Virus record (IMG/VR): IMGVR_UViG_3300030372_002914
Location: 865 to 64,864 of that record
Origin: a virus
Taxonomy: Duplodnaviria > Caudoviricetes
DNA length: 64,000 bases
Direction: 5' to 3' (one strand)
Positions within the stretch are counted from its first letter, which is position 1; each line of letters begins with the position of its first letter. Of this stretch, positions 1 through 51,900 are shown piece after piece. The notes beneath the pieces were generated by a model that worked only from the letters and a program-made list of their open reading frames with translations, was not told where the DNA came from and did not search any database. A program made the position numbers and the translations under genes.

Positions 1-2
1 AG

Positions 3-431
3 CAATGGGTACAGGGTTTTTATGTAGATCAAAACTGGTATGATGTTAGTAGCGGTGATTCTATATTAATTGCTACATCAAATGATGAATTTTACAACTG
101 GCATTTTGGAGATGCTGTAGCAAGGTTTAATGCACAAGAATTAGATAAGCTAGGAATGCAGAAAGAGCTTAGCGCTGTTATAGGTTTAGCTTATTATAAA
201 TATACACCAACATTATGGATACACGCATGGTATAATTGTTTACCTTACCATCGTGGTTTAGATGACTACTCATATGATTATGAAGGTAGTACTATAGAAT
301 GGGATGCTGGTTTAGTATTTGGAACTAAAATAACAAAAAACCTTGGTTTATTCGTGGAAGGAACCCACATGAAGTATTGGGGTAAAAAAATATACGAAGT
401 AAAATTTGGGTTTAACTATTTAATATTTTAA
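3..431 (+). CDS. C-terminal part of a putative outer-membrane beta-barrel protein (5' truncated by window edge)
   Basis: Frame is open from base 3 (QWVQGFYVDQNWYD...) through the listed 156..431 ORF; amphipathic aromatic-rich strands; ends EVKFGFNYLIF, resembling a BAM beta-signal with terminal Phe. Confidence 0.55.
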   Translation, partial: QWVQGFYVDQNWYDVSSGDSILIATSNDEFYNWHFGDAVARFNAQELDKLGMQKELSAVIGLAYYKYTPTLWIHAWYNCLPYHRGLDDYSYDYEGSTIEWDAGLVFGTKITKNLGLFVEGTHMKYWGKKIYEVKFGFNYLIF

Positions 432-434
432 GAT

Positions 435-818
435 ATGGCATTTAAAATGAAAGGTTTTTCTGCTTTTACCAAAAAAACAGATAAAGATTATGAACCACAA
501 ACAAAGGCTGGTGGCCGTGAGTATGAAGATAAGGTAAGAAGATCAGATTTAGACGAAGAAGGGAAAAAGATATTTGACAGTAAGGGATATGAACCACAAA
601 CTCAAACTAGAGGTTATAAAGGTAGTGAACATACTGATTCTACACCTCAAACTGAAATGCAAAAAATGCCTTTATATAGATTAGAGGGAGAATTGGACGG
701 AATTATGGATAATGAATATATGGAGGCTAAAGAGAGGGGTGATAAAAGTGAGATAGCAAGGTATGAATCTCAAATGAATAAACTTAAAAAAGAAATAGAA
801 AGAAGAAAAAATAAATAA
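435..818 (+). CDS. Small charged protein with MAFKMKGFSAFTK leader (putative virion internal/cargo protein)
   Basis: N-terminal 13 aa identical to 822..1091; internal repeat K(D/G)YEPQT twice. Confidence 0.75.
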   Translation: MAFKMKGFSAFTKKTDKDYEPQTKAGGREYEDKVRRSDLDEEGKKIFDSKGYEPQTQTRGYKGSEHTDSTPQTEMQKMPLYRLEGELDGIMDNEYMEAKERGDKSEIARYESQMNKLKKEIERRKNK

Positions 819-821
819 GAT

Positions 822-1091
822 ATGGCATTTAAAATGAAAGGTTTTTCCGCGTTTACAAAAACAAACGGAGATGATAAAAAGAAAATAGCTGAAAATCAAG
901 ATCCAGGGTCTGGTAGAAGTAAGAAGGAAGAGATGGCACATGATATGCGGATGACTAGAAAGGAGATAGCTAGATTTGAGAAAGAGGGTAATAACAAGGC
1001 TATAGGCATGTTAAAAAGCGCTTTAGAAAGACAAAAGAAAGCATATATAGAATTATATGGTAAATTACCAGGTATGGGAACATTTGAATAA
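822..1091 (+). CDS. Small basic protein with MAFKMKGFSAFTK leader
   Basis: 5' nucleotide cassette taagatATGGCATTTAAAATGAAAGGTTTTTC shared with 435..818. Confidence 0.75.
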   Translation: MAFKMKGFSAFTKTNGDDKKKIAENQDPGSGRSKKEEMAHDMRMTRKEIARFEKEGNNKAIGMLKSALERQKKAYIELYGKLPGMGTFE

Positions 1092-1106
1092 ATTAAAACT
1101 AAAACT

Positions 1107-1865
1107 ATGAAAAAATACATTATAATATTATTTGCGCTTATAAGCTCGTTCGCTTATTCGCAATACGACTTTCAACAATTATGCTTAGACTGCGCTGAAC
1201 AAAACGGTTTTTATTGTGGAGATGATCCAGCAAACTGGACGCAATATTCTCCAAATGGATGTGTACCTAATGGTTTTCAAGGTTTATTTTATTTAAATGA
1301 TGGATGGGAAGACTGTGTAGATGGATCTGATGAAGCTGAAGCTGTACCAACAGTAGCAACTGATTGTGCTCCTCCACCACCTCCACCATGTGATACGGTT
1401 TACGTAGACATACCAGTTTATATCTATGAAACTTTATTCCAAACAGATACTATATACCAAACGGAGTATATCACTCAAATACTTTTTGATACTATAGTAG
1501 AAATTGAATATGAAACTATATTTGAAGAAATATTTGTTACAGATACATTGTGGATGGACGGGGCTTTAGATACTATGTACATTGATATTATTGAGTATGT
1601 AGATGTATTTGTTTATGATACAATAGTAGAAACAGAGACTGTTTATATAGAGTTTTTTACTACTGATACTATTGTGGAATATGTAGAGATTATAAATACA
1701 GAATATTTAGATTGTGATACGGGCTTACCTTGTACTTCAAATATACCTGAACTTATAAATAAATATAATAAAAATAGTGTAATCTATAATATTAATGGGC
1801 AGGCAATAAAAGAAAAAGAAGGATTGTACATTGAAGATGGTAAAATCAAATACAAACTAAAGTAA
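1107..1865 (+). CDS. Secreted protein: signal peptide + LDL-receptor class A-like domain + poly-Pro + DT(I/V) repeats + T9SS-type C-terminal sorting domain
   Basis: MKKYIIILFALISSFAYS/Q signal; FYC...CVP...NDGWEDCVDGSDE (LDLa-like); C-terminus TSNIPEL...IYNINGQAI...GLYIEDGKIKYKLK resembles a type A T9SS CTD. Confidence 0.7.
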   Translation: MKKYIIILFALISSFAYSQYDFQQLCLDCAEQNGFYCGDDPANWTQYSPNGCVPNGFQGLFYLNDGWEDCVDGSDEAEAVPTVATDCAPPPPPPCDTVYVDIPVYIYETLFQTDTIYQTEYITQILFDTIVEIEYETIFEEIFVTDTLWMDGALDTMYIDIIEYVDVFVYDTIVETETVYIEFFTTDTIVEYVEIINTEYLDCDTGLPCTSNIPELINKYNKNSVIYNINGQAIKEKEGLYIEDGKIKYKLK

Positions 1866-1866
1866 A

Positions 1867-2211
1867 ATGGCAAAAGAAATTTCAGAAGAAAGTAAGTTTC
1901 AAATTAGTATTAAAACATTAATAACTATAGTAGTTGCTGTTGCGACTGTTATATCTGCTTATTTTGGCTTAATGAGTAGTATTAATTCTAAGTTTGTAGA
2001 ACTTGAGGATAAAGTAGAAGAAGCTTTAGAAAAACCTAAACCAGGTACTGGTACTTATACTATAGATATGGGTGATCCAGCCGCTAGTAATTCTTGGCCA
2101 CCAACCCGTATGGAGTTTAATATGAAAGATCAAATGGCTCGTAATCAAATTGATGCGTTAGTAAAGGAGATAGATGAAATGAAAGAGGAAATAAAAGATT
2201 TAAGAAAATGA
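1867..2211 (+). CDS. Single-pass membrane protein with coiled-coil C-terminus
   Basis: Hydrophobic segment TLITIVVAVATVISAYFGLM; heptad-rich C-terminus. Confidence 0.6.
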   Translation: MAKEISEESKFQISIKTLITIVVAVATVISAYFGLMSSINSKFVELEDKVEEALEKPKPGTGTYTIDMGDPAASNSWPPTRMEFNMKDQMARNQIDALVKEIDEMKEEIKDLRK

Positions 2212-2609
2212 TTAAAAGAATAGACGTATCTAATTACCTTTATATACTAATGATGGTGTTCATGTTCTTATGTGGAACAGCATTTAGTCAAGATTTTGTT
2301 ACTGCTGATAACTTTAAAGATAAAATAGCTAAAGATATAACAATCATTGAATTCTGGGCTGAATGGAATCAAATGAATCAGTTTAATGAATTAATTAAAT
2401 TAAAAGGATGTAATGTATATCGAATCGATATTATGTCTTATATGGACATCCAAATGAATTATAACGTTACAGCTATACCAACTGTAATCATATTTGATAA
2501 TGGCGTTGAAAAAGAAAGATTTAATCCTAATGTAATGTTTAAACTAGACGCTGACAAAAAAACAGTACAACACTCGGTTGATACTATAACACTAAATAAA
2601 TTTCAATAA
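2208..2609 (+). CDS. Exported thioredoxin-fold protein lacking the CxxC motif
   Basis: Hydrophobic N-terminus ending AFS/QD; IIEFWAEWNQMN at the WCxxC position; cis-Pro motif AIPTVIIFDNGVEKERF. Confidence 0.7.
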   Translation: MIKRIDVSNYLYILMMVFMFLCGTAFSQDFVTADNFKDKIAKDITIIEFWAEWNQMNQFNELIKLKGCNVYRIDIMSYMDIQMNYNVTAIPTVIIFDNGVEKERFNPNVMFKLDADKKTVQHSVDTITLNKFQ

Positions 2610-2611
2610 TT

Positions 2612-2980
2612 ATGGCATTTAAAATGAAAGCAAAAGGATTTGGTAATAATCCTTTTAAAAAGAATTTTCCTGATTTAACAGGTGATGGCAAGGTAACTCA
2701 AGCTGATGTATTAAAAGGTAGAGGTGTATTTAAAAAAAATGGAAATGATGATAAGGTAGTTCCTAAATTTGAAAAACCTGAATTTATGTCTGATGACTAT
2801 TTTAAAAGTCTTTCTGATAAATATAAATTACCAGTTAGTGATATAAAAAACAAAATTAAATCTTTAAGCGACACTGGAGGCGGTGGAGAAGAAGATGATT
2901 TTGGGCCAGCTGATGTTAATAGCATTATTAGAGATATGGCTAAAGACAAGTACGAAAGCAACGTAGACGAAATAGATTAA
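2612..2980 (+). CDS. MAFKMK-leader protein with DxxGDG calcium-binding-like loop
   Basis: MAFKMKAKGFGNNPFKK then DLTGDGKVTQADVLKGRGV. Confidence 0.65.
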   Translation: MAFKMKAKGFGNNPFKKNFPDLTGDGKVTQADVLKGRGVFKKNGNDDKVVPKFEKPEFMSDDYFKSLSDKYKLPVSDIKNKIKSLSDTGGGGEEDDFGPADVNSIIRDMAKDKYESNVDEID

Positions 2981-2982
2981 TT

Positions 2983-3309
2983 ATGGCTTATGTACAAAAG
3001 AATAATCCGATACCTATAACCGGGTGTGGTAGACGTAGGGCGGAGCAAATGGCTAATCCATTTAAAAAAATAAGCAAAAGATCTTTATCTAAAGTATCTA
3101 CTCAATTAAAAAAAGCTAGTAAACTACACGCTGATCAAGCTAGTAAAATAGATAAAGCTATAGATAGTCCTTTAAAAAAAGGTATTAGCGGACCTTGTAA
3201 GTCTGCAGCAAAAAGAAAATTTAAAGTATGGCCAAGCGCTTACGCTTCTGGATGGGGCGTAAGGTGTACTAAAGCTGGTGGCCCAAGTAAATACGGAGGT
3301 AGTAAGTAA
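2983..3309 (+). CDS. Small basic protein of short modules (KRKFKVWPSAYASG module)
   Basis: MAYVQKNNP leader; NPFKK and SPLKK separators; Cys-flanked basic module of a type I recall from marine phages. Confidence 0.65.
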   Translation: MAYVQKNNPIPITGCGRRRAEQMANPFKKISKRSLSKVSTQLKKASKLHADQASKIDKAIDSPLKKGISGPCKSAAKRKFKVWPSAYASGWGVRCTKAGGPSKYGGSK

Positions 3310-4175
3310 TGTTTAAGGGTTTTAATATAGATAGATTTAAAAGAATGAAACCACCTTCTGACAACTCGTTTAATACGATGCAGGAGGTAAAGCAGCTTAA
3401 TAGTATACCTATGAATAAGTCTTCTGTTCAAAAGTACGATAACATAGAAAAAACCTTTGCTGATATAGCTGCTAAAAATAATATAACTAACTACGACTCT
3501 AAACTAGTAGGTGATTTAATTAAAAAATCAGCACCAATAATAACTAAGTTAAAAAAGCATTTTAATAGACCTAGACCTAAAGTAATGGCTAAAAAATTAG
3601 GTATACGTATGGCAGACTATGAAATGAACTCTATGAAAACACCATCATATCCTAGTGGTCATTCAACTCAAGGCGTTTTAATAGGTAAAGTATTAGCAGA
3701 TAAATACCCTAAAGCAGCCAAACAATTTATTAAGGCTGGTAAAAACATTTCTGATAGTAGAAGAATAGCTAAAGCTCACTACAAATCTGATAGTAAAATG
3801 GGTGAAATGCTAGGTAACGAAATGTACAAACATGCAAAAGCCTCACCATTGAAATGTTGGAAAGGTTACGAAAGAGTACCTGGTACAGCTAAAGGCTCTA
3901 AAGGTAGTTGCCGTAAGTCTTCGCCAATGAAAAAACAAAAAGGTGGTGGTACAACTAAAACTTGTTTACCTGCAGCTAAGATACGTGGCATGAGTAAAGA
4001 AAAAAGGCAAGAGCTAGTTAGCTCTAAAAAGGCAGCTGGTGCACAGGGTAAATATAAAAGATCATCTAAAACAAACGTTAAAGGCGCTAGAAAAAAAGGT
4101 GCTACGTTAAGAGACTGGTTTCAAAAAGAAGACTGGAGAAGAGTAGATGATCCTTCTAAAAAATGTGGAGAATAA
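3309..4175 (+). CDS. Soluble PAP2/acid-phosphatase-superfamily domain fused to basic peptide modules
   Basis: All three PAP2 motifs: KxxxxxxRP (KKHFNRPRP), PSGH (SYPSGHS), SRxxxxxHxxxD (SRRIAKAHYKSD); no TM helices; C-terminal CWKGY and LRDWFQKEDW modules after SPLK and SPMKK. Confidence 0.75.
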   Translation: MFKGFNIDRFKRMKPPSDNSFNTMQEVKQLNSIPMNKSSVQKYDNIEKTFADIAAKNNITNYDSKLVGDLIKKSAPIITKLKKHFNRPRPKVMAKKLGIRMADYEMNSMKTPSYPSGHSTQGVLIGKVLADKYPKAAKQFIKAGKNISDSRRIAKAHYKSDSKMGEMLGNEMYKHAKASPLKCWKGYERVPGTAKGSKGSCRKSSPMKKQKGGGTTKTCLPAAKIRGMSKEKRQELVSSKKAAGAQGKYKRSSKTNVKGARKKGATLRDWFQKEDWRRVDDPSKKCGE

Positions 4176-4489
4176 TGGCATATATACAATCAAATAATCC
4201 TTTTAAAAAATCAGCGGAACCAAGACGTACTATAGGTCCTGGTAAAAATTTTAATAAAGCTAGACCAACTGGAACTGGTGCTGCAGCTGGTGGAGGTATG
4301 ACTCAAAAAGGCGTTGATGAATATAAACGTAAAAATCCAGGAAGTAAATTGCAGACCGCTGTTACTACTAAGCCATCTGAATTAAAACCAGGTAGTAAAA
4401 AAGCTAATCGTAGAAAATCATTCTGCGCTAGATCAAGAAGTTGGAAAAGCGAAAGAGGTAAAGCTGCTAGAAGAAGATGGAACTGTTAA
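4175..4489 (+). CDS. Small Arg/Lys-rich protein (NPGSKLQTAVT...RRKSFCAR...RWNC family)
   Basis: ATG at 4175 overlaps the previous stop; MAYIQSNNPFKK leader; highly basic module. Confidence 0.7.
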   Translation: MAYIQSNNPFKKSAEPRRTIGPGKNFNKARPTGTGAAAGGGMTQKGVDEYKRKNPGSKLQTAVTTKPSELKPGSKKANRRKSFCARSRSWKSERGKAARRRWNC

Positions 4490-6587: not shown

Positions 6588-6590
6588 TTA

Positions 6591-6725: not shown

Positions 6726-6726
6726 A

Positions 6727-7432: not shown

Positions 7433-7433
7433 A

Positions 7434-10924: not shown

Positions 10925-10925
10925 A

Positions 10926-11237: not shown

Positions 11238-11239
11238 AT

Positions 11240-11428: not shown

Positions 11429-11432
11429 CGGT

Positions 11433-12702: not shown

Positions 12703-12723
12703 GGTTTATTGGTTTTGGTCTAT

Positions 12724-12736: not shown

Positions 12737-12775
12737 TATCTTTGTTAATATTTACATTAGTGGATCGAGTGTAAC

Positions 12776-14575: not shown

Positions 14576-14583
14576 GTATTATT

Positions 14584-21539: not shown

Positions 21540-21896
21540 ATGGCGTTCAAATTAGGTAAAGAAAAGCGAAATTTCAAACATTCTGGTAATGTTAAGCTAG
21601 TTAGGACACCATTAGATAAAGGAACGATAGCAGAAGCCAGAAATGATGGTACTATAGCTGTTAATCCTGATGTAAAACCTAATAGCGCTTTAATGAAAAG
21701 AGTTATTAAACATGAAATGAAGCATCTTCAGGACATGAAAGACGGTAGAGCTGCATATGGAGACAATTGGGTCATGTGGGAAGATAAGATCTACTTTCGA
21801 AGAAATGGTATGATCGACGGTCCAGCGGGTAGATTACCTGAAGGACATAAAGATCACCCATGGGAGCAAGAAGCTATTGCTGCCGAAAAAGAATAA
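21540..21896 (+). CDS. Small zincin-like metallopeptidase with MAFKL leader
   Basis: HEMKH (HExxH) plus downstream PWEQEA third-ligand motif; preceded by G.IAVN strand. Confidence 0.7.
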   Translation: MAFKLGKEKRNFKHSGNVKLVRTPLDKGTIAEARNDGTIAVNPDVKPNSALMKRVIKHEMKHLQDMKDGRAAYGDNWVMWEDKIYFRRNGMIDGPAGRLPEGHKDHPWEQEAIAAEKE

Positions 21897-21927: not shown

Positions 21928-22464
21928 ATGGCATTTAAACTAAAAGGGATGGGATTCGGTGAAGGTACCGGATATAAATCCCCACAAATGATGAAAAAAG
22001 AAGCTGCAATGAAAATGAAAAAAGAAGCAGCTATGAAACTTAAAAAAGATTCAGCGATGGATATGAAAAAAGATTCAGCGATGAAAATGAAGGGGAAGTC
22101 TGCATACAAGAAAAATGGAAACGATAAAAAAATAGTGAACACAAGGACTTTAACAAAAGCTCAGTCAGCGCACCAAAACATAAGGAACATATTAGGACTT
22201 GATAAAAGAAAAAGGGACACCACTATTGGGACTAAAGGTGAAGGCAAATATTATTCCACAAAGGATATAAAGCCGTTAAAACATGAGACTCCTGAGCAAT
22301 TTAAAAAGAGAAAAAAGTCGGTATCTAAGTATATTTCTAAACAACAATTAAAGACACTTTCGGGAGACGGCCCTACAGATGTTGGTAAAATAAAGGATTT
22401 TGAAAAAGGTACAGAAGCTATTCATGCAGTTCAACATATGGCGAACAAAAGAAAAAAGAAGTAG
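21928..22464 (+). CDS. Lys/Met-rich basic protein with MAFKLKG leader and tandem repeats
   Basis: MAFKLKGMGFG; five 8-aa repeats followed by SAYKK-NGNDKK. Confidence 0.75.
   Translation: MAFKLKGMGFGEGTGYKSPQMMKKEAAMKMKKEAAMKLKKDSAMDMKKDSAMKMKGKSAYKKNGNDKKIVNTRTLTKAQSAHQNIRNILGLDKRKRDTTIGTKGEGKYYSTKDIKPLKHETPEQFKKRKKSVSKYISKQQLKTLSGDGPTDVGKIKDFEKGTEAIHAVQHMANKRKKK
21991..22110 (+). repeat. 5 x 24-bp coding tandem repeat (MKKEAAMK / MKKDSAMK units)
   Basis: atgaaaaaagaagctgcaatgaaa and four degenerate copies. Confidence 0.9.
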
Positions 22465-32435: not shown

Positions 32436-33614
32436 ATGATAGAACTAAATGAAGAGGTTACTGAAGAAGTAACTGACTCTGTTGAAGAGACAACAGACGA
32501 AAATCAAGAGCAACCCGTTGAAGAGGTTGTAGAAGAAATAGATGAATCTAAGTTTGATAGTGCTGGTGATCCAGATGTTATTAAAATAGATTTAGACAAA
32601 AAGCCTCAAGTTGAACAAGGGGATAATGTAACAAAAGTAAACATAGACAAAAAGCTTGCTGAAGAAACAGTTGAAACTGAACAACCAGTAATGGAAGAAG
32701 TCACAGAGGAAGAAACACAAGAAGTACAAGAAGTAGTTGAAGAAGCAATAGCTGAATCAGAGGCAACTGGAGAGCCTTTACCAGAAGGCGTGCAAAAGTT
32801 AGTAGAGTTTATGAACGAAACTGGTGGTGATTTAAACGACTATGTAAAATTAAACAGAGACGTTAAAGAAATGGACGACTCTGATGTATTAAACGAGTAT
32901 TATCGAGAAACAAAATCTCATTTAACGCCAGAAGAAAGATCTTTTTTATTAGAAGATAATTTTGGTTATGATGATAGCGTTGATGATGAGAAAGATATAC
33001 GTAAAAAGAAAATAGCCCTCAAAGAGCAAGTTGCCGAGGCTAGAGCCCACTTAGACAGGCAAAGGTCTAAATACTATGAAGAAATTAAAGCTGGGTCAAA
33101 GTTGACCAATGAACAACAAGAAGCAATTAATTTCTATCATAAATACAACAAAGATTCTGAAAAACAGAAGAAGTTATCTGAAAAAAGCAAAAGAACATTT
33201 TTAAATAAAACTAATAGTTTCTTTGGACAAGATTTCAAAGGTTTTGAATACAATGTCGGGGATAAAAAATATAGATTTAATGTTAAAGATGCTGATAAAG
33301 TAAAGACAACCCAAAGTGATATTAATAATTTCGTTAATAAATTTGTTGGCGAAGACAAATCAACTATTGAAGATGCAGAGGGTTATCACAAATCTTTATA
33401 TACTGCTATGAACGCTGATAAGATTGCTAAACATTTTTACGAGCAAGGTAAAGCTGATGCAATCAAAGACAGAGTTGCTAGAGATAAAAATATTAATTTA
33501 GAGCCTAGGAAAACGCACGGCGAAACAAATGTTGGGGGTGTTAAGTATAAGGTTTTAGGTCAATCTTCTTCTGATATTAAAAACAGATCTTTTAAAATTA
33601 GAAAGAAAAATTAA
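32436..33614 (+). CDS. Capsid scaffolding protein
   Basis: Very acidic N-terminus, helical, located between portal and capsid genes. Confidence 0.7.
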   Translation: MIELNEEVTEEVTDSVEETTDENQEQPVEEVVEEIDESKFDSAGDPDVIKIDLDKKPQVEQGDNVTKVNIDKKLAEETVETEQPVMEEVTEEETQEVQEVVEEAIAESEATGEPLPEGVQKLVEFMNETGGDLNDYVKLNRDVKEMDDSDVLNEYYRETKSHLTPEERSFLLEDNFGYDDSVDDEKDIRKKKIALKEQVAEARAHLDRQRSKYYEEIKAGSKLTNEQQEAINFYHKYNKDSEKQKKLSEKSKRTFLNKTNSFFGQDFKGFEYNVGDKKYRFNVKDADKVKTTQSDINNFVNKFVGEDKSTIEDAEGYHKSLYTAMNADKIAKHFYEQGKADAIKDRVARDKNINLEPRKTHGETNVGGVKYKVLGQSSSDIKNRSFKIRKKN

Positions 33615-37813: not shown

Positions 37814-40800
37814 ATGCCGGAAATTAAAAGAACATTTACAGCCGGTAAGATGAACAAAGATCTCGATGAGAGATTAGTTCGTAACGGCGAATATAGAGAC
37901 GCTTTAAACATACAAGTTAGAACCACTAGTGGAGAAGACGGCATTGGTGATGCTGGTGTAGTTCAAAACATTAAAGGTAATAGTTATAAAGGTGTTGCAC
38001 ATATAACTAAGACCTATACGCTTCCCAATGAAGATGATGTTTTATTATACACTAAATTCGTAGGTAGCGTTGCTGATGAAAAAAATGATAAGGCTTATTT
38101 TTTCGCGGCATCACCTTTACCAGAAGGTGGATTTGATTCTATAACGCATACATATATAATGGGTGTATATTCTGGGAATCCAGATTTTTGGAATTCAGGT
38201 GATGGATTAAGACATTGGATAGATAGTATAATTGAATTAGACGCTACAACAGAAACTAGTACACCTATTTTTGTTGATAAATACGGAGTTACTGGTAGAT
38301 TGCATGATGTAATAGGTGCGGACAATGTAACCGCTACATCTATAGGTTTAGAATTAAAAGTATTAGACGGATCGCTGTATAGAATCGGCATGATTGCTTA
38401 TTTCTATAACAATGACGGTGAACATTTATTTGTTAATTCTCAAGGCAATGGGGTTAAAATAATAGATATACAAGAAAATAAATTAATTTTAGAATCAGAG
38501 CAAGACTTAAATTTACAAACTGAATTAACTAACGGCAACATAGATTATAGAAGTGCGTTTAAATTTATATATCCAGAAAGGGTTTTAGAATTTGATTATA
38601 ACTCTTTGATACCAAACATTAATATAATAGACAATCTGTTATTTTATACAGATGGTAAAAATGAGCCAAAAAAAATAAATATTGACAGATCTAAAGCTGG
38701 TACTATTTTTTCATTAATAGAAAGCTATATAGACCCTGACTCACAAGAAGATACTATAATAGAATTTCCAAATATCCAAACAGCTGAATCTTACCTTGAA
38801 AGACCTAAACACACAAAGTTATTTGTTAATAATACTATTATAGATGCTGATCAAGAACTTGTAGAAGTAAAAGAATTAGAATGGGACGTAAAAACATCTG
38901 ATATAAAAAGAGAGCATATTACAGTTATAAGAAAAGCTCCTTTATCACCACCAACATTAGAAATTAGTAACACAGATAGAGAAGGGAGTGTTAGTTTTCC
39001 TTTATCTTATTCTGGTTTTATACAAAATGGAGAACCTATATTTGGGGAAACTAGAGTTATACAAGCTAATATTCTTTTGAATCAAGATGTTAGATTAAAT
39101 GATGTATTAAGATTTACTAGCGATGAAAATAATAATAATCCAGTCACAATTGTAACTAGGGTAATTGGTATTAACGGGCCTAACGCTATAGAAGTTCAAT
39201 TAACTTTCATTGACCCTGATTTAATATCTCAAGAACCATCATTATGGAACGTAGAGGTAGAGCAAGAAAAACCTTTATTTGAAACTAAATTCGGTAGAAT
39301 AGGTTATAGGTATCAATATGAAGACAATGAATATTCTACTTTTTCTCCTTGGTCTGAATTAGCTTTTTTACCAGGGGGTTTTTCATATACACCTAGCAAA
39401 GGCTATAATGAAGGTATGTCTAATAACACTAGAAAACTAGTAATTAGAGATTTTATACCAGATAATTCTATAAGACCTATTGATGTTAAGAAAATTGATA
39501 TACTTTGGAAAACAACAGATGACCAAAATGTATATGTTATAAAAAGTATAACTAGAGGTAGAGATGTAGAGTGGGATGTTCTTGGCCAAGAAACTAAAGG
39601 TGAGCTAACTATGACATCAGAAATGATACATAGAGTGTTATCTAATGAACAATTATTAAGATCTTGGGATAATGTACCTAAAACAGCTTCAACTCAAGAG
39701 ATAACAGGTAGTAGACTTGTTTTTGGTAATTACACACAAGGATATGATATAAATAAAGTAGTAAATTTAGAACAATCATTATTATCAGATACTGTAATTC
39801 CTCTTGAGCCTAAAAAATCTATTAAATCTATTAGGAATTATAAATTTGGAATGGTATTTGGGGATAGATATGGTAGAGAAACGCCAGTGTTAGCAAGAGG
39901 TTATAATATAGGTGTTAATTCTGGCGTAACTGGAGATACTAGTATTGATAAAAGTTTAGCTAGTTTTTCTAATAAATTTAGAGTAAAACAAAATTGGGAG
40001 ACAGAACCAGAGGATTGGATGGAGTACGTAAAGTATTACGTAAAAGAAACTTCTAATGAGTATTATAATTTAGTAATGGACAGATGGTATATTGCTGACG
40101 ATGATAACTCAACAATATGGATGTCTTTTCCATCTGTCGATAGAAATAAAGTTGATGAAGAAACTTATTTGTTGTTAAAAAATGAACATGGATCACAAAA
40201 CGCTGTCGTAGACAGGGCTAGATATAAAATATTAGCAATAGAAAGTGAGGCTCCAGATTTTATTAAAACTGATTATAGAAAATTTGAAAAAGTTTTAATA
40301 GACCCTGAGAATGTTTTTAGTGACACAGATACATCAAGTGGTATTCCAGATAAATTAATTGGGAGTAAAACAATAAGGACAGACACTACTAACTGGGAGC
40401 TCGCTGAAGGTGGCTTGACTCCTGAAATACAAGCTGATCAGTTTAAAGGTACTATTAAAGTAAGAATAGTTGGAGAAGTTGCTGATAACCCAAGTGTAAC
40501 TTTACACACTCGTTGGATAACTGTTGCTAGAGTAAAAAGCGGACCAGGTAATGATAGAGGTTGTGATATGAAAGAAGAGTTCACTACTGAGGAAGCTAAC
40601 ATGTACATAAGGTTAGGTAACATATTTACAATTGACGCTGCGGCAAACGTAGCAGTAAATTATTATATGGAATTTATGGATGAGGTTGTAGAAAATAAAC
40701 CAGAATTTGACGGTAGATTTTTTGTAAAAATAGAAAAAGATCCAATACTAACTGAATACGTAGCGTCTTCTACTTCTGGTACTCAATGGCAACCGGAAAT

Positions 40801-43800
40801 GAGCACTAAAGTAGGTTATATAACCAACAAACCTGAAAATGACGCTTTTATATTACAAACTGGAATGGATGGTTTTCCAAGCGGATTTAATATTGCAAAT
40901 TATACTGAAGATTCAATTGACAATTATTATAGCGCTGTCCAAGCTGTTAACCTTGCTGGAGGAAATAATGATTGGGGTCTTACTGAAACTGGTTCTGGTG
41001 TGGTACCATCTTTTATTTGGGACGGTGGCATTAATGGTAATAGTAGAACTCAAGATTTTTGGAACTGGCACAATACACAAGTTTCAGAAGGAAATGCCCC
41101 TAAAATATTTATTGATGCTATACCTGCTTTCCGTGGGTGGAATAAAGTAGAGTCAGTATCGCTTGGAATTGGTTTTGGTGGAGTTGAAAATGATATACTC
41201 GTAGATCTCCCAAGCCGCTTTGATTCTAGAAATCCTTACGTAGCAGAACATCCAGACTACGAAGTTGACGCTCCTGGTAATTATGATCCGGGAGATCCTC
41301 CTAGATTACCAGTAAGTTTATGGTTTAACGACCAGTTTTATGCAGGAGAAGATTGGATAAATGGGTTTAGTTATATTGGTTCGAACTCTTACGTTTATGG
41401 CGGTGTTCCTTATGGACCGGGAAACAACCCGGAGCAACAAACAAAAAACTATTTACCGCCTGGGTTCTCACAAGGCTCAGGTAGTTCAGGTACTTACAAT
41501 CAATTTTGTTTTTCTGTAGTTGGGGAGACAAGTGGTTTTGGTACCGCCACTAGTAACGAACAAGAGTTCAAATCAAGAATGCAAAGTGTTGGTCAATGTT
41601 TTAGATTTCAAGAGGATGCAGATCAAACTGTTTACAAGATAATAGCAAATACACAACTTGTTAACCCAAATGCACCGGAAAATCAAGCTGCTATATTTAA
41701 TGGAGAAATATCTATAGATAGTATAAATTATCACACAGATAATTATCCCGATGATTTAGTTGCTAAAAGACACTCAATAGTTGTTAGATTTGTGAGATTA
41801 GATACTTTTGGTGGAGAAATGTATGATAATGGCTCGCCAGTTGGTATAGATTATAGTGAGTTTGATCCTAGAGGTTATGTTGGAAGTGATGGTATAGGTA
41901 ATTTTACAATAGAGTTTGTAACGGAATTAAATGAAAGTGAATTAATCGAAGACTCTATAAGAACTGATAAAGCTTGTTGGGAAACCGAACCTAAAAAAGA
42001 CATGGATATAGATATATACTATGAGGCTAGCGGGGCTATACCAATGAACTTAAAAGAAAATAACATACAAATTTATGCTCAACCTTCTAATTCCTTATTA
42101 TTAGAAAAAGCTAAATTAGCTAGTACAGTAGATATTCTTTCTAGAAAGATTGGTCCAGATCAAACTGTAGAAGTAAATATAAATAGTGGTTTAGATTATG
42201 GTTTTAGTAGTATATTTGCTTACGTGTGTAAAACTATAGGTAATAGAGGTATTATGATAGCGCATAATAATGATAATGCGTTCGCTGCTAATAATTTGAT
42301 TACTTTTCCAAGTATTAATGATGTAAATGAAATATATACAAGAAATTACCCAGCTATAGATGACTTTATAACATTCACACATCCAAATGGTTTAATAACT
42401 AGATCAAAAATAATAGATCATTTAGCGGTTAACTCGATAGCTCCTTTTGATAAAACAAACAATATAAGTCCATCATATAGAGACACAATTGATAGTGGTG
42501 CGACATTTAACGTCATAAACGATGGGCAACCTAGAGGTTATTTCTTTGCTCAAACTCCATCACCGCTTCAAGTTGGAATGGAATTAAGGGGAACTTTTGT
42601 TAAACCTGGGAGTTTTATATGTTTTCAAGTTGATTTTGGGTCATTTGGAACGCTTTTTGCTATTAATCAACATTTTAAAGAAGAAGTTGAGGGAATAGCA
42701 TACAACGAAGAATCATTAGTTTTAACAGGTATAGAAACAACAGGTTTTTTTGAAATAGATCCTGAGGTATGGAAGTATGAAGTTGATTTAAACTGGTTTA
42801 ATTGTTATTCATTTGGTAATGGTGTGGAATCAGATAGAATAAGAGATGATTTTAACGCGCCAACTATTGATAATGGTATAAAAGCTTCATCTACGTTTTT
42901 AGATTATAAAGAAGAAACTATAGGTAGTGGATTAATACACTCTTCTGAGCTATATAACGCTATATCTAGTGTTAATGGTTTAAATGAGTTCAGTATGGGA
43001 CAAAAAATAACTAAAAATTTAAATCCAATTTATGGCTCTATACAGGCTTTAAAAACAAGAGACACAAACTTGGTTACCTTCTGTGAAGATAAAGTTTTAA
43101 AAGTATTAGCAAATAAAGACGCTGTATTTAATGCTGATGGTAATCCACAATTAACAGCTACAAATAGAGTTCTTGGGCAAACAATACCATTCGCCGGGGA
43201 TTATGGTATATCTAAAAATCCAGAATCATTAGCTGTTGATCAATATAGAATGTATTTTACAGATAAACAAAGAGGTGCTGTATTAAGATTATCTGGAGAT
43301 GGTTTAACACCTATATCCAATGTTGGCATGAAAACATATTTTAGAGAAAATTTACGAGACTGTAGTTCTATAGTAGGTACTTTTGATGCTGAAAACGGTG
43401 AATACAATGCTACTCTTAATTTTAATGAGGAATCTCAAAAAAATTCTACAACTGTAAGTTTTAATGAAGGGGGTAAAGCTTGGGTTAGTTTTAAATCTTT
43501 TCTACCTAATTGTGGTGTTTCTGTAAGTGGTAAATATTTTACAACACCTACTATAGAACAGTCTTTAAATGCTCAAAACTATATAGCCGCGAGTAGTAAA
43601 ATTTGGCTGCATAATGCTAATGAAACGAGAAATAATTTTTATACAATTGATGAATTTAAATCAACTATAGAAGTCATATTTAATGATATGCCTAGTGTAG
43701 TAAAATCTTTTAAAGCTGTAAACTACGAAGGTACACAGAGTAGAGTTTTAGAAAACACAAGTACGTCGTATGGTGGTGATGGGGAATATTATAATATAGA

Positions 43801-44845
43801 AGGAAAAAATGGTTGGTATGTAAATGCGTTTAATACAAATACTCAATCTGGTAAAGTAAAAGAGTTTTTAGAAAAAGAAGGTAAATGGTTTAATTTTATA
43901 ACGGGTACCGTTGACACATCTGGTGATATAAGCGATTATGTAAATTCTAGTGAGTTTAGTGTACAGGGAATAGGTTTTCCACTATTAATAGGTGAAGGAT
44001 TTGAACAATCGCAGGCTATATTAGAAATAGAAGTACCCCAACCTACTATTGATCCTGTAACAAATGAAGCTGACGAAAACACTGCTGAAATTGAACTTGT
44101 TGAAAATACGGTTAATTATCAAATGCCTCAAGACGATGGTAGTACTATTCCTATGTGGGACTGGGATAGTTATAATATAACAGGAGGCAATTGGAGTGGA
44201 TTTGGTGATCTTTATCCTGAATTAGCTGAAATTTACAACTCTCAGTCTTTAAGATATTATCATGGAATTACAATTGAATTTATTTATAATGGTATAGCAC
44301 CGTTTACAGATGAAGATGGTTTAGAATATTTATATGTTACTATTATGAAAAATGGAGCCGCTTTACCAACATTCGAATTTCTTGACACAACTACGTATGC
44401 TGAATCAGGTTTTAATAATCTAGAATTGAGGGCTTATAGAGTTGAAGGAAGTAATATTTATGAATATGAATTTAAAAATGCTATGAATTCTAGCATGTTT
44501 TCTAATGCGGCAGGTTCAGGCGCTTTTGAAACCAGTGTATTTATTGGTGACACATTCCAATTGATAGTTGAGGATACAAGCAGCAACAAAGGGACAAAAA
44601 CTATAACTTTAACTGGTGATTATATTAACCCTGACCCGGCAGATGTGCCATTAGTAGATTGGAAACCTGGATTTCATGATGGAGATGGTCAAATTACTAC
44701 AGAAGGTACAATAGGTACAGGTGAAAACGATATAAACGATTCATACACTGGACCTTTAGGTGTACAAGTGAACTTAGATTGGAAATTTGGGCCAAATGGA
44801 GATCAAGAAATTACAGATCAAGAACCAACTGATATACTAGATTAA
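37814..44845 (+). CDS. Tail nozzle/muzzle (stabilisation) protein, enlarged by insertions
   Basis: F..GKMNKDLDERL..NGEYRDALN start; NGVESDRIRDDFNAP...; beta-propeller-type C-terminal part GDYGISKNPES...FTDK.RGAVLRLS.DGLTPIS. Confidence 0.75.
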   Translation: MPEIKRTFTAGKMNKDLDERLVRNGEYRDALNIQVRTTSGEDGIGDAGVVQNIKGNSYKGVAHITKTYTLPNEDDVLLYTKFVGSVADEKNDKAYFFAASPLPEGGFDSITHTYIMGVYSGNPDFWNSGDGLRHWIDSIIELDATTETSTPIFVDKYGVTGRLHDVIGADNVTATSIGLELKVLDGSLYRIGMIAYFYNNDGEHLFVNSQGNGVKIIDIQENKLILESEQDLNLQTELTNGNIDYRSAFKFIYPERVLEFDYNSLIPNINIIDNLLFYTDGKNEPKKINIDRSKAGTIFSLIESYIDPDSQEDTIIEFPNIQTAESYLERPKHTKLFVNNTIIDADQELVEVKELEWDVKTSDIKREHITVIRKAPLSPPTLEISNTDREGSVSFPLSYSGFIQNGEPIFGETRVIQANILLNQDVRLNDVLRFTSDENNNNPVTIVTRVIGINGPNAIEVQLTFIDPDLISQEPSLWNVEVEQEKPLFETKFGRIGYRYQYEDNEYSTFSPWSELAFLPGGFSYTPSKGYNEGMSNNTRKLVIRDFIPDNSIRPIDVKKIDILWKTTDDQNVYVIKSITRGRDVEWDVLGQETKGELTMTSEMIHRVLSNEQLLRSWDNVPKTASTQEITGSRLVFGNYTQGYDINKVVNLEQSLLSDTVIPLEPKKSIKSIRNYKFGMVFGDRYGRETPVLARGYNIGVNSGVTGDTSIDKSLASFSNKFRVKQNWETEPEDWMEYVKYYVKETSNEYYNLVMDRWYIADDDNSTIWMSFPSVDRNKVDEETYLLLKNEHGSQNAVVDRARYKILAIESEAPDFIKTDYRKFEKVLIDPENVFSDTDTSSGIPDKLIGSKTIRTDTTNWELAEGGLTPEIQADQFKGTIKVRIVGEVADNPSVTLHTRWITVARVKSGPGNDRGCDMKEEFTTEEANMYIRLGNIFTIDAAANVAVNYYMEFMDEVVENKPEFDGRFFVKIEKDPILTEYVASSTSGTQWQPEMSTKVGYITNKPENDAFILQTGMDGFPSGFNIANYTEDSIDNYYSAVQAVNLAGGNNDWGLTETGSGVVPSFIWDGGINGNSRTQDFWNWHNTQVSEGNAPKIFIDAIPAFRGWNKVESVSLGIGFGGVENDILVDLPSRFDSRNPYVAEHPDYEVDAPGNYDPGDPPRLPVSLWFNDQFYAGEDWINGFSYIGSNSYVYGGVPYGPGNNPEQQTKNYLPPGFSQGSGSSGTYNQFCFSVVGETSGFGTATSNEQEFKSRMQSVGQCFRFQEDADQTVYKIIANTQLVNPNAPENQAAIFNGEISIDSINYHTDNYPDDLVAKRHSIVVRFVRLDTFGGEMYDNGSPVGIDYSEFDPRGYVGSDGIGNFTIEFVTELNESELIEDSIRTDKACWETEPKKDMDIDIYYEASGAIPMNLKENNIQIYAQPSNSLLLEKAKLASTVDILSRKIGPDQTVEVNINSGLDYGFSSIFAYVCKTIGNRGIMIAHNNDNAFAANNLITFPSINDVNEIYTRNYPAIDDFITFTHPNGLITRSKIIDHLAVNSIAPFDKTNNISPSYRDTIDSGATFNVINDGQPRGYFFAQTPSPLQVGMELRGTFVKPGSFICFQVDFGSFGTLFAINQHFKEEVEGIAYNEESLVLTGIETTGFFEIDPEVWKYEVDLNWFNCYSFGNGVESDRIRDDFNAPTIDNGIKASSTFLDYKEETIGSGLIHSSELYNAISSVNGLNEFSMGQKITKNLNPIYGSIQALKTRDTNLVTFCEDKVLKVLANKDAVFNADGNPQLTATNRVLGQTIPFAGDYGISKNPESLAVDQYRMYFTDKQRGAVLRLSGDGLTPISNVGMKTYFRENLRDCSSIVGTFDAENGEYNATLNFNEESQKNSTTVSFNEGGKAWVSFKSFLPNCGVSVSGKYFTTPTIEQSLNAQNYIAASSKIWLHNANETRNNFYTIDEFKSTIEVIFNDMPSVVKSFKAVNYEGTQSRVLENTSTSYGGDGEYYNIEGKNGWYVNAFNTNTQSGKVKEFLEKEGKWFNFITGTVDTSGDISDYVNSSEFSVQGIGFPLLIGEGFEQSQAILEIEVPQPTIDPVTNEADENTAEIELVENTVNYQMPQDDGSTIPMWDWDSYNITGGNWSGFGDLYPELAEIYNSQSLRYYHGITIEFIYNGIAPFTDEDGLEYLYVTIMKNGAALPTFEFLDTTTYAESGFNNLELRAYRVEGSNIYEYEFKNAMNSSMFSNAAGSGAFETSVFIGDTFQLIVEDTSSNKGTKTITLTGDYINPDPADVPLVDWKPGFHDGDGQITTEGTIGTGENDINDSYTGPLGVQVNLDWKFGPNGDQEITDQEPTDILD

Positions 44846-48936: not shown

Positions 48937-51900
48937 ATGGACTTTGGAAAACACTTTGGAAAATTAGGTAAAATATTTAAATTATCTGATGGTAAATTAA
49001 TGACAATTTTGCCAGAAAATGAAAATCATTTTTTAAATCAATTAAAAGAAAAAGGTTTAAAGGCAACTTTAATGCTAGATTCAACTACTAATTTTGATGA
49101 AGTAAAAGGTTATACTAAAAAAACTACTGTATCTAAAGAAAAAGAAGAAAAAACTCAACCGGTAGATTTAACTATAAATCAAGAAGTTAAAACAGATCTA
49201 CCTCCCCCTATTAATTCATATAAATATAACAATCAAGAATACGTAAAATTAAAAACACCTAAAGAAGGTAAGGAGTATTTTGTTTTAAAAAGTGTAGCTG
49301 AAGAATTAGGTTATACTTTTGAAAACATTGATGGCGAGTACGAAAACATACCTACTATTAAAAACACAGATGACTTTATTAAAATACAAGACACTAACTA
49401 TCTTGAAGCAACTAAAGGTAATGAGCTGTTATTTGATAAATATGAAGAAGATTTTGATATTGAGCTTGAGCCTTCAAGCCAAATTGAAGATGAAATAGCA
49501 CCTGATGGGTCAGTTGAAGACTACATAATAGGTGATGGCTTTGATTTTTCAATACAAACTCCAGATAAAATTTTAACATACGAAAATGCTGCTGATTGGT
49601 TTAATTATAGATCTGAATTAGCTAATTATCCTTTTAAAGAAGAAATTATTTCGGAGCAAGGTTTTTTGGAATATACTGAATATAGTGTTTTGGATGATGA
49701 AACAGAAATTACGCCTGAAGGAGCATATTTTAAAAGTGGTTATTTATCAAAAGAAATATTTGGAACTATAAACACTTGGGATGAAAAAACTCATCTTAGA
49801 AACAAAGAAGTAAAAGAAAAAATATTTGCAGGAACTCATGGTTATAACCCTGCAACAGATACGTTATATAAATTATCTAAACCTGTAAAAGTTGATGAAG
49901 CTTCAAAATTATATGCTTTTCATAACCAAACAGAGTTTGTTGATTATGATAAATTTGTTGAGAAGGAAAACACAAAAACTATAGATTTACCACTTGTTCA
50001 AGACTACTTTTCTTCACCTAATGCAATACCAATATCATCTACCGCAAGTGTAGAATATCAAAAGAAACTTATAGATAGCATGGTATTAGATAAAAACGGC
50101 CAAGCAGCAGTTTTTGATGAGCGTTTATTTAATTTATCTTCATCTAATTTTGTAGAAACCGCTAGTGGTTTGTTAATGAAAAGTGGATTTTATATAAACC
50201 AAGGGGGTAAAGGTGTTGAAATTTATTCCCAAGATTACTATGAACATTTGTTAGAAGAAGAATTAAAACGTGTTGATAAAGAATTAGAAGATTTAGGTCC
50301 AAAGCCAACTTTTAGCAGTGCAGGTTTTTCAGTTAGAAATGCAACAACTCTTGATCAATTCGAAAAAATTTTAAATGATTATAATAAAAAATTAGAACCA
50401 TTACTTGAACAGAAAGAAAGTGCTAAGAAAAGAATGGAAGAAAAAGCTACTTTAAGTGTAAACACTTTAAATTATAATATTGAAGACGTAAGAGAGGCTG
50501 TTACAAAATTTAACAATTTTTTAAATACCGCAGGACAATATCATGACGCAGATATTGATACTTGGACTGAAAATTATATAGAGTTTGCTAAAACCAGAAT
50601 TACGAAGGAAGACAAAAAAGAAGCACATTTGAGAGTTGCGGGTGCATATGATTACATTGAATTATTACGTAAAGATTCTTTAACATACGAAATGATGATA
50701 AGCATGAGGATGTCACCTGATGAAATAATATCACTTGTGGAAAATGCTGATGAAAAAACAAAATCTCAAATTAATCGAGATATATTAGAAGTGTACGACC
50801 TTTTAACTGGCCCAGATGTAACAGTTACAGACGCGGAGCTATTAGATTTTTTAGATAGAACTAAACAAATGGAAAAAACCGAAGCAGGTTTTATACTCAA
50901 CGTGCTTAATACATCTATACTAGATCTTGAAAAAGACCACGTTAAAGAAGCTAGAAAAGAACACGCAAAGACATATTTTCCTAATTTAACTCAATCTAGT
51001 ATATTTGAAGACTACACAACGAGAGACGAAGAACTTTTGTATTTAAAATATGGTAGTAGTTATGATGAAAATAAAGCGCTAGCAATTCTTGAACTACAAT
51101 ATCCTGATGGTTTTCCTATTGATTCTACAAAATCAATAAAAATAGATGATGATCTTAGCCAACCTGATAGAGAAGCTATAATTAATACTGATAAATTTAA
51201 AAATTTAGTTAAATCGTTATATGAGACAGAGGGTTATTTAGAAGATAAAAAAAGCGAAGTAGACAAGCAAATGCGTGTAGATAAAGATCTTGAACTATTA
51301 AAATACGCATTAAACGAAGAGGCCACGAAGTTTTCAGCTAAGTTTTTTAGTGAAGGTAAATTAATTGATAATGTTAGCGATGATATAGATTTACAATTAG
51401 AAAATATTGGTGTAGAAAAAGCAAAGATAATTTATCAAATGAATGCAATAGAGGGAACTATGGGAGAACTCACGGTTAACCTTAAAGATTTGGAAGAAGA
51501 AATAAAATACTTTGATAAAAACATGGAAGTTGAAATAGAAAAGATAATGGAAAAATATAATATTGATCCAGAATCTCCAGGCGCGATGGATATGCTTAAA
51601 AAAAATCCAAAAGCTGTAGATGAGTTCAATGGGTTGGGATTGGCAAGAAACAGTCTTTTAAATCAATATAATTTATTGGCAACTGAAACAATACCTACTT
51701 ACGAGAAGTTAAAAGAAGAAATAACACAGGAATATATGACTATATTAAGTACTGAAGATGAGTATGCTTTAGCTAAGAATATAGCAGATAGAAAGCACGC
51801 TACAGGAACTTACTATGCTACAATGTTTGGTACATCTGTATTTGATATTTTTTATGGATCAGCTGCTGCTATTGCGTCTTCTGGATCTAGAACATTACAA

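What the first reader, a model, noticed from the sequence alone, without database searches (positions are those of the whole stretch)
435..4489. Shared MAFK(M/L)K / MAY..NNP N-terminal leader: candidate capsid-cargo targeting peptide
Unrelated small proteins start with near-identical leaders: 435 and 822 (MAFKMKGFSAFTK, also near-identical at the DNA level), 2612 (MAFKMKAKGF), 21540 (MAFKLGK), 21928 (MAFKLKGMGF), plus variants 2983 (MAYVQKNNP), 4175 (MAYIQSNNP) and 3309 (MFKGF). The bodies differ: acidic/basic peptides, a Ca-loop, a phosphatase and a metallopeptidase. T4 internal proteins provide a precedent for a short N-terminal capsid targeting sequence. Inference: a modular packaging tag that lets the phage swap cargo, including anti-defence enzymes, into the head. 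The duplicated DNA cassette suggests the leader is shuffled by recombination.
Basis: partly seen in the sequence, partly recalled or inferred. Interest (0 to 1): 0.8.

Follow-up and report, generated by a model that had tools for sequence, protein, structure and literature searches.

The report
Portable N-terminal tag on phage proteins
An abundant group of uncultured ocean phages puts the same 8-13-residue start (MAFKMKGF...) on about a hundred unrelated small late proteins; this is most likely an address label that brings them to the forming virus particle, but packaging has not been shown.

Summary
Five late ORFs of this 64.9-kb marine phage start with MAFK[ML], and FK[ML]K occurs nowhere else in the six-frame translation.

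A degenerate-DNA scan for MAFKMKGF found more than 119 IMG/VR contigs, mostly relatives of this phage. It found only 2 chance-level hits in 596 Gb of bacterial and archaeal genomes.

In those loci 298 ORFs carry the leader, always at the N-terminus, and 283 of 284 are co-oriented with the late genes. Their bodies fall into about 100 unrelated clusters. Synonymous sites vary, so selection acts on the peptide. AlphaFold2 leaves the leader disordered.

MAY[IV]Q..NPFKK is a diverged form of the same tag: orthologous DUF6321 bodies carry either form. MFKGF at 3309 is probably not a tag.

New circumstantial support for a virion address:
- A clade-specific mini-metallopeptidase carries the tag when free-standing. 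In 37 other proteins it is untagged and fused to the C-terminus of homologues of this phage's 3,789-aa giant late protein.
- The tag resembles the scaffold's conserved C-terminal tail.

There are no virion data, no T4-type protease and no cleavage motif. Packaging remains an inference (about 50%). This scan has noted analogous tags before, on other DNA from T4-like marine phages.

The parts
435..818 (+). Tagged small protein (127 aa); leader MAFKMKGFSAFTK encoded at 435-473
   Evidence: The body has no homologue outside close relatives.
822..1091 (+). Tagged small protein (89 aa); identical 13-residue leader encoded at 822-860
   Evidence: Orthologues are found in ENA, JGI and Tara metagenomes.
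2612..2980 (+). Tagged protein (122 aa): MAFKMKAKGF, then NNPFKK, then a DLTGDGKVT Ca-loop-like module shared with Pelagibacter phage HTVC027P gp44
2983..3309 (+). Variant-tag protein (108 aa): MAYVQKNNPIPITGCGRRR module, NPFKK and SPLKK junctions, and a DUF5872-like C-terminal module
3309..4175 (+). Soluble PAP2-type phosphatase (residues 1-~180) fused to two basic modules. In other genomes these modules are separate genes with their own MAFKM or MAYIQ leaders. Its own MFKGF start is probably not a tag.
4175..4489 (+). Variant-tag protein (104 aa): MAYIQSNNPFKK + DUF6321. The start overlaps the previous stop codon (TAATG).
   Evidence: In the AF2 model residues 1-22 are disordered.
21540..21896 (+). 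Tagged mini-metallopeptidase (118 aa; MAFKLGK leader; HEMKH at residues 58-62; invariant E109)
   Evidence: Alignment A1. AF2 pLDDT 77.5 with residues 1-16 disordered. Weak matches to minigluzincins. 592 relatives in 1.84 billion proteins.
21928..22464 (+). Tagged Lys-rich protein (178 aa) with internal leader-like AAMKMKK repeats
32436..33614 (+). Acidic scaffold-like protein between the portal and major capsid genes. Its conserved basic C-terminal tail (SFKIRKKN here, SFKFKIKNKK in relatives) resembles the leader.
48937..60306 (+). Giant late protein (3,789 aa). Its homologues in other phages carry the peptidase domain as their C-terminal domain. Here it ends in a K/E linker plus Zn-ribbon-like modules.
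37814..44845 (+). 2,343-aa virion structural protein with a weak crassvirus muzzle C-terminal domain match
   Evidence: PHROG 14478, E 3e-103. PF25729, E 4.5e-4, below the gathering score.

Best explanation
The MAFKMKGF[SP]xF[TK]K N-terminus, and its diverged form M(A)[YF][IVK]Q..NPF[KT]K, is a portable, intrinsically disordered address tag used by one clade of uncultured marine phages. By their A-rich, Shine-Dalgarno-less start contexts and their isolated relatives, these phages probably infect Flavobacteriia. The tag brings many unrelated, mostly small, Lys-rich late proteins, together with a mini-metallopeptidase, to a common phage-encoded partner during particle assembly. The most likely partner is the procapsid interior (coat, scaffold or portal) or the giant late protein. 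The tagged proteins would then be stored in the virion and delivered with the DNA, as T4 does with its internal proteins. Shown here: the tag is real, strictly N-terminal, selected at the peptide level, portable between unrelated bodies, restricted to late genes and specific to this clade. Also shown: the peptidase is tagged when free and untagged when covalently fused to giant-protein homologues. Inferred: the partner, packaging into the virion, any cleavage, and ejection.
For: (1) The tag sits on many unrelated bodies. More than 119 IMG/VR contigs hold MAFKMKGF. 298 tagged ORFs (270 unique) form about 100 body clusters, 77 of them singletons. Of 142 representatives, only DUF6321 and a few unknown PHROGs are recognised.
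(2) Selection acts on the peptide. The third base of the Gly-7 codon is A .17, C .26, G .27, T .30, and information content falls to background after residue ~11.
(3) The tag is virus-specific. There are 2 chance-level hits in 596 Gb of prokaryote genomes, and it is absent from six isolated relatives.
(4) Tagged genes are late genes. 283 of 284 tagged ORFs are co-oriented with the nearest late gene. They cluster in the stretch of late genes upstream of the terminase gene (around the GroEL gene), near the portal and scaffold-like genes, and at the end of the late operon.
(5) The tag is swapped and moved. Orthologous DUF6321 bodies carry different leader forms. Pelagiphage HTVC027P gp52 starts exactly where the body begins. 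Modules fused in window ORF 3309 are separate, individually tagged genes in L039, L055, L044 and L017.
(6) Tag-or-tether pattern. Among the best 150 of 592 peptidase relatives, 40 of 63 short free-standing forms are tagged. None of 37 giants (1,000 aa or more) is tagged; in most of them the domain lies at or near the C-terminal end, and in all 37 it comes directly after a region homologous to residues ~3020-3665 of the window's giant protein. In 14 tag-positive loci that cover the giant's C-terminus, it never ends in the peptidase. Fused-type genomes showed no tag.
(7) The tag is disordered in both AF2 models.
(8) All 17 full-length scaffold homologues carry a basic C-terminal tail with alternating hydrophobic and K/R residues, FK[FVI][KR] in 16 of them, much like the leader's AFKMK.
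(9) The bodies are Lys-rich (16.6% against 8.1%) and poor in hydrophobic residues, a composition like that of T4's basic internal proteins (from my own knowledge). [quoted passage not shown]
(10) The phage has a muzzle-like tail protein. Crassvirus virions store about 5.5 MDa of cargo protein (PMC10172136).
Against: - There are no proteomic or structural data for any tagged protein, and no isolate carries the tag.
- No prohead protease family was found in any late ORF that was scanned. The leader has no T4-type L/I-x-E site.
- The same body modules occur without this tag in pelagiphages and cyanophages, and in many close metagenomic relatives. Only 4 of the best 120 longer DUF6321 proteins are MAFK-tagged.
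- The tag-or-tether pattern rests on one family.
- That the giant protein is a virion protein is itself inferred from size and gene position only. It has no homologue in isolates.
- The scaffold-tail resemblance is a short motif noticed after the fact.
- The fused-type records examined are incomplete (15-83%).
Confidence: 0.5

Rival explanations
1. The tag is a docking or recognition handle for a phage enzyme rather than a packaging signal. The enzyme could be the co-distributed mini-metallopeptidase (processing) or a domain of the giant protein (for example its kinase). The tagged proteins would act in the infected cell.
For: The peptidase family, the giant protein and the tag are all specific to this clade and absent from isolates. 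The peptidase is the most conserved tagged gene, found in 55-71 loci. The giant protein has an AAA_33/zeta-toxin-type kinase domain.
Against: The peptidase itself carries the tag, so it would be both enzyme and substrate. No conserved cleavage site follows the leader. The tag-or-tether pattern points to co-location with the giant protein rather than catalysis. This rival is not exclusive of packaging.
Confidence: 0.2
2. The shared N-terminus is an expression feature. It would be an optimised start region, or a nascent-peptide or stability element, for small late genes in a host without Shine-Dalgarno-led initiation. It would have no addressing role.
For: The upstream region is A-rich with A at -3 and at -11 to -13. 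The leader codons are AT-rich and Lys-rich. Tagged genes are short and tightly packed, some with overlapping stop and start codons.
Against: Highly expressed late genes such as the major capsid protein, the portal and the scaffold lack the leader. Gly-7, Phe-8 and Phe-11 are conserved while synonymous sites drift. The upstream DNA of tagged genes in the window is not conserved. This rival does not explain why the peptidase loses the tag when fused to the giant protein.
Confidence: 0.1
3. The tagged proteins are one fast-evolving family of disordered proteins, and only their N-terminus has stayed recognisable. The leader would be a relic of common descent, not a portable module.
For: Most bodies are low-complexity, Lys-rich and probably disordered. 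Such sequences lose detectable similarity quickly. The largest cluster is a network of shuffled short modules.
Against: The tag also sits on folded, unrelated domains: the peptidase and DUF6321. These exist without it in other lineages. Orthologous bodies carry different leader forms.
Confidence: 0.08

Closest known systems
Capsid targeting sequence (CTS) of T4 internal proteins IPI, IPII, IPIII and Alt
   Same: A short conserved N-terminal leader is the only thing shared by a diverse, fast-changing set of small, mostly basic late proteins (PMC3012670). There are several tagged genes per genome, and the tag is portable between bodies.
   Different: The sequences are unrelated: MAFKMKGF against T4's MKTYQEFIAE (the latter from my own knowledge). 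There is no L/I-x-E cleavage motif and no T4-type prohead protease was found. The phage lineage is different: a podophage-type relative of Cellulophaga and Flavobacterium phages with a muzzle-like tail protein. Packaging has not been shown here.
Cargo proteins of crassviruses (PhiCrAss001 gp45, gp46 and the RNA-polymerase-related proteins)
   Same: Both infect Bacteroidota and have a large terminase and portal. This phage has a weak muzzle-domain match, and giant and small genes follow the muzzle-like gene. The crassvirus virion stores about 5.5 MDa of cargo in capsid and tail (PMC10172136).
   Different: No shared N-terminal tag is described for crassvirus cargo. The terminase is only distantly similar (23.6% to cr272_1). 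The muzzle match is below Pfam's threshold.
Encapsulin cargo-loading peptides
   Same: A short, Gly- and Lys-containing, disordered peptide suffices to dock varied cargo to the inside of an HK97-fold shell (from my own knowledge). The leader resembles the scaffold's C-terminal tail here.
   Different: Encapsulin peptides are usually C-terminal. No binding has been tested here.
Minigluzincins (selecase, abylysin, jannalysin), for ORF 21540 only
   Same: A soluble peptidase of about 110 residues with an HExxH helix and a downstream Glu. These are the top Foldseek and PDB-profile matches.
   Different: The matches are weak (E 0.002 by sequence profile, Foldseek E 0.1, TM about 0.36). The family is viral, and is either tagged or fused to a giant protein.

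Membership tests
T4-type capsid targeting sequence | Conserved N-terminal leader of about 10 residues on otherwise unrelated small late proteins | tested here: met
   298 tagged ORFs in about 100 body clusters. Conservation is confined to residues 1-11.
T4-type capsid targeting sequence | The leader ends in the prohead-protease site (L/I-x-E) and is removed | tested here: not met
   The consensus MAFKMKGF[SP]xF has no such site. Whether the leader is removed could not be tested.
T4-type capsid targeting sequence | The phage encodes a gp21-type prohead protease | tested here: not met
   Pfam and/or PHROG scans of the late ORFs examined found none. Coverage was incomplete: ORFs 24063 and 63359 were not scanned and several others were scanned with only one library. 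The only peptidase found is the HExxH mini-peptidase.
T4-type capsid targeting sequence | Tagged proteins are present in virions and injected with the DNA | not testable with these tools
   No isolate carries the tag. No proteome is available.
Encapsulin-type cargo-loading peptide | The peptide binds the inner face of the HK97-fold shell protein | not testable with these tools
The only hint is the resemblance to the scaffold's C-terminal tail.
Crassvirus-type virion with cargo zones | Muzzle protein with the crass domain | tested here: inconclusive
   PF25729 matches at E 4.5e-4, 21 bits against a gathering score of 27, in the 2,343-aa protein. A relative's 1,034-aa protein carries the precomputed hit.
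Minigluzincin peptidases (ORF 21540) | Fold of about 100-110 residues with HExxH and a third zinc ligand on a downstream helix | tested here: inconclusive
   H58, E59, H62 and E109 are invariant in 36 sequences. The model has a strand, active-site helix and C-terminal helix arrangement. The best matches are abylysin and selecase, but they are weak.

The most novel reading that the evidence does not exclude
A cargo-loading system previously undescribed in non-T4 phages. A disordered N-terminal peptide that mimics the scaffold's coat-binding tail loads dozens of interchangeable small basic proteins, plus a mini-metallopeptidase, into the virion of an abundant ocean phage group. The peptidase may process the cargo there. 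The same peptidase is delivered by covalent fusion to a giant ejected protein in sister lineages.
Probability: 0.25. Interest if true: 0.8.

Novelty: new variant of a known kind. Interest (0 to 1): 0.68.

Why it matters
If the tag is a packaging address, it marks the injected-protein repertoire of a very common uncultured marine phage group. That repertoire is about a hundred dark-matter families, which could then be found directly from sequence. It would also show that leader-directed cargo loading is not peculiar to T4-like phages, and it would give a very short, portable peptide for loading foreign proteins into capsids. The tag-or-tether pattern of the peptidase offers a simple comparative rule for finding such systems elsewhere. 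Even if packaging is wrong, a 10-residue, virus-only signal conserved on hundreds of unrelated proteins must have a specific partner worth finding.

Tried and rejected
- Host-type signal: rejected. There are only 2 chance-level matches in 185,579 species genomes.
- Isolates with virion proteomes that carry the tag: none found. tblastn of ORFs 435, 21540 and 21928 gave no match, and ORF 2612 matched only a pelagiphage body module. Whole-genome pattern and ORF scans of MW202828, elemoE, phi40:1, phi18:3, Gundel and Panino were negative.
- Literature: the strings AFKMKG, FKMKGF, MAFKMK and MAFKLK do not occur in a relevant paper. DUF6321 and DUF5872 are essentially unmentioned.
- Function of the bodies: Pfam and PHROG recognise almost nothing. 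The DUF6321 model has no Foldseek match in the PDB. The giant protein has no PDB sequence match.
- One of 142 tagged representatives hits phrog_36695, 'virion structural protein' (E 1e-6). I could not identify which one.
- Internal [SNGTD]P-hydrophobic-K[KQM] motif as a general polyprotein code: it is enriched (16 observed against 4.3 +/- 1.9 in shuffles) but present in only 15 of 270 tagged proteins beyond residue 15. In most cases it belongs to the extended leader. In the giants the SPxKKL just before the peptidase is part of the domain's first strand.
- Tag-or-tether for other bodies: only the peptidase family shows it in the giants available.
- The word-index search with the leader region returned only orthologues of ORF 822, so it gives no global count of tagged proteins.
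Full report
**What the window is.** The window is 64,000 of the 64,864 bases of a circularly assembled phage genome; the assembly has a 99-base terminal overlap. Early genes lie on the - strand (4722-20651). One long late operon lies on the + strand, running 20726-64000 and wrapping round to 1-4489. It encodes:
- GroEL and GroES
- a 744-aa terminase and a 796-aa portal
- an acidic scaffold-like protein
- a 499-aa major capsid protein
- a 2,343-aa virion protein with a weak crassvirus muzzle match
- a 3,789-aa giant protein with an AAA_33/zeta-type kinase domain

The nearest isolates are Maribacter phage Panino, the Flavobacterium 'elemo' phages and Cellulophaga phages of the Pervagoviridae and Pachyviridae, at 38-46% capsid protein identity. 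An uncultured freshwater podophage, MW202828, has 64.5% terminase identity. Start contexts are A-rich and lack Shine-Dalgarno sequences, which fits a Bacteroidota host.

**The observation.**
- FK[ML]K occurs in the six-frame translation only at the N-termini of ORFs 435, 822, 2612 and 21928.
- AFK[MLK] adds ORF 21540.
- NP[FLIM]KK occurs only in ORFs 2612, 2983 and 4175.
- None of the early genes carries the motif.
- Six related isolated genomes have no comparable shared N-terminus.
- ORFs 435 and 822 share 36 of 39 nt over codons 1-13. All three differences are at third positions. They share only 6 nt upstream and nothing downstream.

This last point argues for selection on the peptide, not for a recently copied DNA cassette.

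**How far the tag reaches.**
Every site lies at an ORF start, with an in-frame stop between 1 and 28 codons upstream.
- The same scan of 596 Gb of bacterial and archaeal genomes gave 2 hits, about what chance predicts for a 40-bit pattern.
- Most of the contigs are relatives of this phage: 56-71 of the 119 loci hold homologues of its GroEL, terminase or ORF 21540 in the flanks.
- In the loci plus the window, 298 ORFs (270 unique) start M[AGS][FY]K[ML]. The consensus is MAFKMKGF[SP]xF, and information content reaches background by residue ~12.
- The third base of the Gly-7 codon is evenly spread over the four bases.
- Bodies taken from residue 15 fall into 100 single-linkage clusters, 77 of them singletons.
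- Of 142 representatives, Pfam recognises only DUF6321 (3 members) plus one borderline AIP3 hit, and PHROGs recognises a few unknown families.
- 283 of 284 tagged ORFs point the same way as the nearest late gene.
- Complete relatives carry 1-5 strict copies.

**Portability.** The tag moves between bodies, and bodies exist without it.
- The DUF6321 body of ORF 4175 has MAYIQSNNPFKK here and in L017 and L044. It has MAFKMKGFTPFTK in L055, MAFKMKGWSPYTK in L039 and the hybrid MAFKQINNPFTK in L020.
- In Pelagibacter phage HTVC027P the protein begins exactly where the body begins.
- The PAP2 phosphatase is a 173-184-aa gene in eight loci. In the window it is fused to two basic modules. In L039 and L055 these form a separate MAFKM-tagged gene. 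In L044 and L017 the distal module is a separate MAYIQKSNPFKK-tagged gene.
- The largest cluster is a network of short modules shuffled among small tagged proteins. Several of those modules occur as untagged mini-genes in pelagiphages and cyanophages.
- The tag is not universal on these modules. Among the best 120 longer DUF6321 proteins, only 4 start with MAFK. Many start M[YF]KQKxNPF or directly with a module.

**The peptidase and the giant protein.** ORF 21540 belongs to the most conserved tagged family (55 members in the loci).
- It has invariant H58, E59, H62 and E109.
- It gives a confident compact model whose first 16 residues are disordered.
- It has weak but consistent matches to minigluzincins, and faint Pfam hits to M91, M90 and the eCIS core domain.
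- A profile search of 1.84 billion proteins found 592 relatives.

The best 150 relatives divide as follows:

| Class | Number | Leader-like N-terminus | Notes |
|---|---|---|---|
| Short free-standing forms | 63 | 40 | |
| Mid-sized proteins | 50 | 9 | About 27 start MA[KN]PITN[KR]VK |
| Giants (1,000-4,039 aa) | 37 | 0 | Peptidase at or near the C-terminal end in most |

In every giant the peptidase directly follows a region homologous to residues ~3020-3665 of the window's 3,789-aa protein. In 14 tag-positive loci that cover the giant's C-terminus, it ends instead in a K/E linker plus zinc-ribbon-like modules.

Five fused-type IMG/VR records showed no leader pattern. Full ORF scans of two of them found none. 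Two complete sister genomes with a free peptidase have the tag on the peptidase and on at most one other real gene.

So the same domain is either tethered to the giant protein or tagged. That is what one expects if the tag brings a protein to where the giant protein goes. The giant is placed among the tail and virion genes, downstream of the muzzle-like gene, where PhiCrAss001 encodes its cargo proteins (PMC10172136). This is an argument from position only; the giant has no homologue in isolates.

**Other hints.**
- All 17 full-length scaffold-like homologues end in a basic tail of the form S/D-F-K-[FVI]-[KR]-I-K (SFKIRKKN in the window). Relatives without the tag end in similar tails that alternate a hydrophobic residue with K or R.
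- In well-studied phages the scaffold's C-terminus binds the coat protein (established for P22; my own knowledge). The leader AFKMK could therefore use the same site. This is a post hoc resemblance between short motifs.
- Tagged bodies are twice as Lys-rich as the other proteins and poor in hydrophobic residues. T4's internal proteins are likewise basic (my own knowledge).
- Both AF2 models leave the leader unstructured.

**What is missing.**
- No tagged protein has been seen in a virion.
- No isolate carries the tag.
- No prohead protease family was detected among the late ORFs that were scanned.
- The leader has no recognisable cleavage site.
- Membership in the T4 CTS family therefore fails on sequence, protease and cleavage motif, although the logic of the system is the same.

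**Verdict.** The 'portable tag' reading is well supported. 'Capsid cargo targeting' is the best single explanation at about 50%. A docking or processing handle for a phage enzyme comes next at about 20%, followed by an expression element at about 10% and a relic of common descent at about 8%. Earlier notes of this scan describe analogous leaders in T4-like marine phages on other DNA; I did not test those. This case differs in lineage, in sequence and in lacking a T4-type protease.

Noticed in passing
window 27516-27788: The 90-aa protein encoded just upstream of the large terminase ends in a conserved tail, FKGFAEGRSK, in 48 of 51 unique homologues (KQGFAERRSK in MW202828). It may be a docking tail of a small terminase or an assembly factor.
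   Followed up: partly
window 59932-60306 (residues 3666-3789 of the giant protein): The giant protein ends in a K/E-rich linker and two Cys/His zinc-ribbon-like modules (the last ends ...KKCYAHQ). Sister lineages have the metallopeptidase domain at this position.
   Followed up: partly
window 2612-4489; L003 6690-9001 (Pelagibacter phage HTVC027P gp44-gp52): A set of short basic modules is shared, as fused or separate mini-genes, with pelagiphages, cyanophages and a Methylophilales phage. The modules are a DLTGDG loop, a KKASK..H..QA helix, DUF5872 (KFKVWPSAYASG), a CWKGY...GSC module, a TCLPAAKIR module, a LRDWF...KKCGE module and DUF6321. DUF6321 is found in 48 phage records and in 4,595 longer metagenomic proteins. 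The function is unknown.
   Followed up: partly
window 21928-22464 and relatives (L008, L020, L025, L046, L110): A tagged protein family contains tandem internal repeats, (E/S)AAMK[ML]KK, that look like the leader. It may be a multivalent version of the same binding motif.
   Followed up: no
G011 (L177-L180) and the mid-sized peptidase relatives P0035-P0094: Sister lineages use another shared N-terminus, M-x-(x)-P-I-T-[NSK]-[KR]-V. It appears on the peptidase, on DUF6321 and DUF5872 proteins and on a 45-aa Cys-rich ORF (MAKPITNKVK, MNDPITSRV, MKPITSKTS, MDLPITKKV).
   Followed up: partly
window 3-2609 (the gene starts in the 864 bases before the window): A late-operon block encodes envelope-directed proteins: a beta-barrel-like protein with a lipoprotein-type signal that ends in Phe, a signal-peptide protein rich in DT(I/V) repeats, a membrane-anchored protein and a signal-peptide thioredoxin-fold protein. 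The tagged genes are interspersed with these. The block is conserved in 12-17 of the loci.
   Followed up: no
alignment A3 (142 tagged representatives): One unidentified member matches phrog_36695, annotated 'virion structural protein' (E 1.2e-6). It is not one of the ten largest proteins.
   Followed up: partly
window 2980-2983, 3307-3311, 4173-4177: The stop and start codons of ORFs 2983, 3309 and 4175 overlap (TAATG), and only two bases separate ORF 2612 from ORF 2983. This suggests translational coupling along the tagged-gene row.
   Followed up: no
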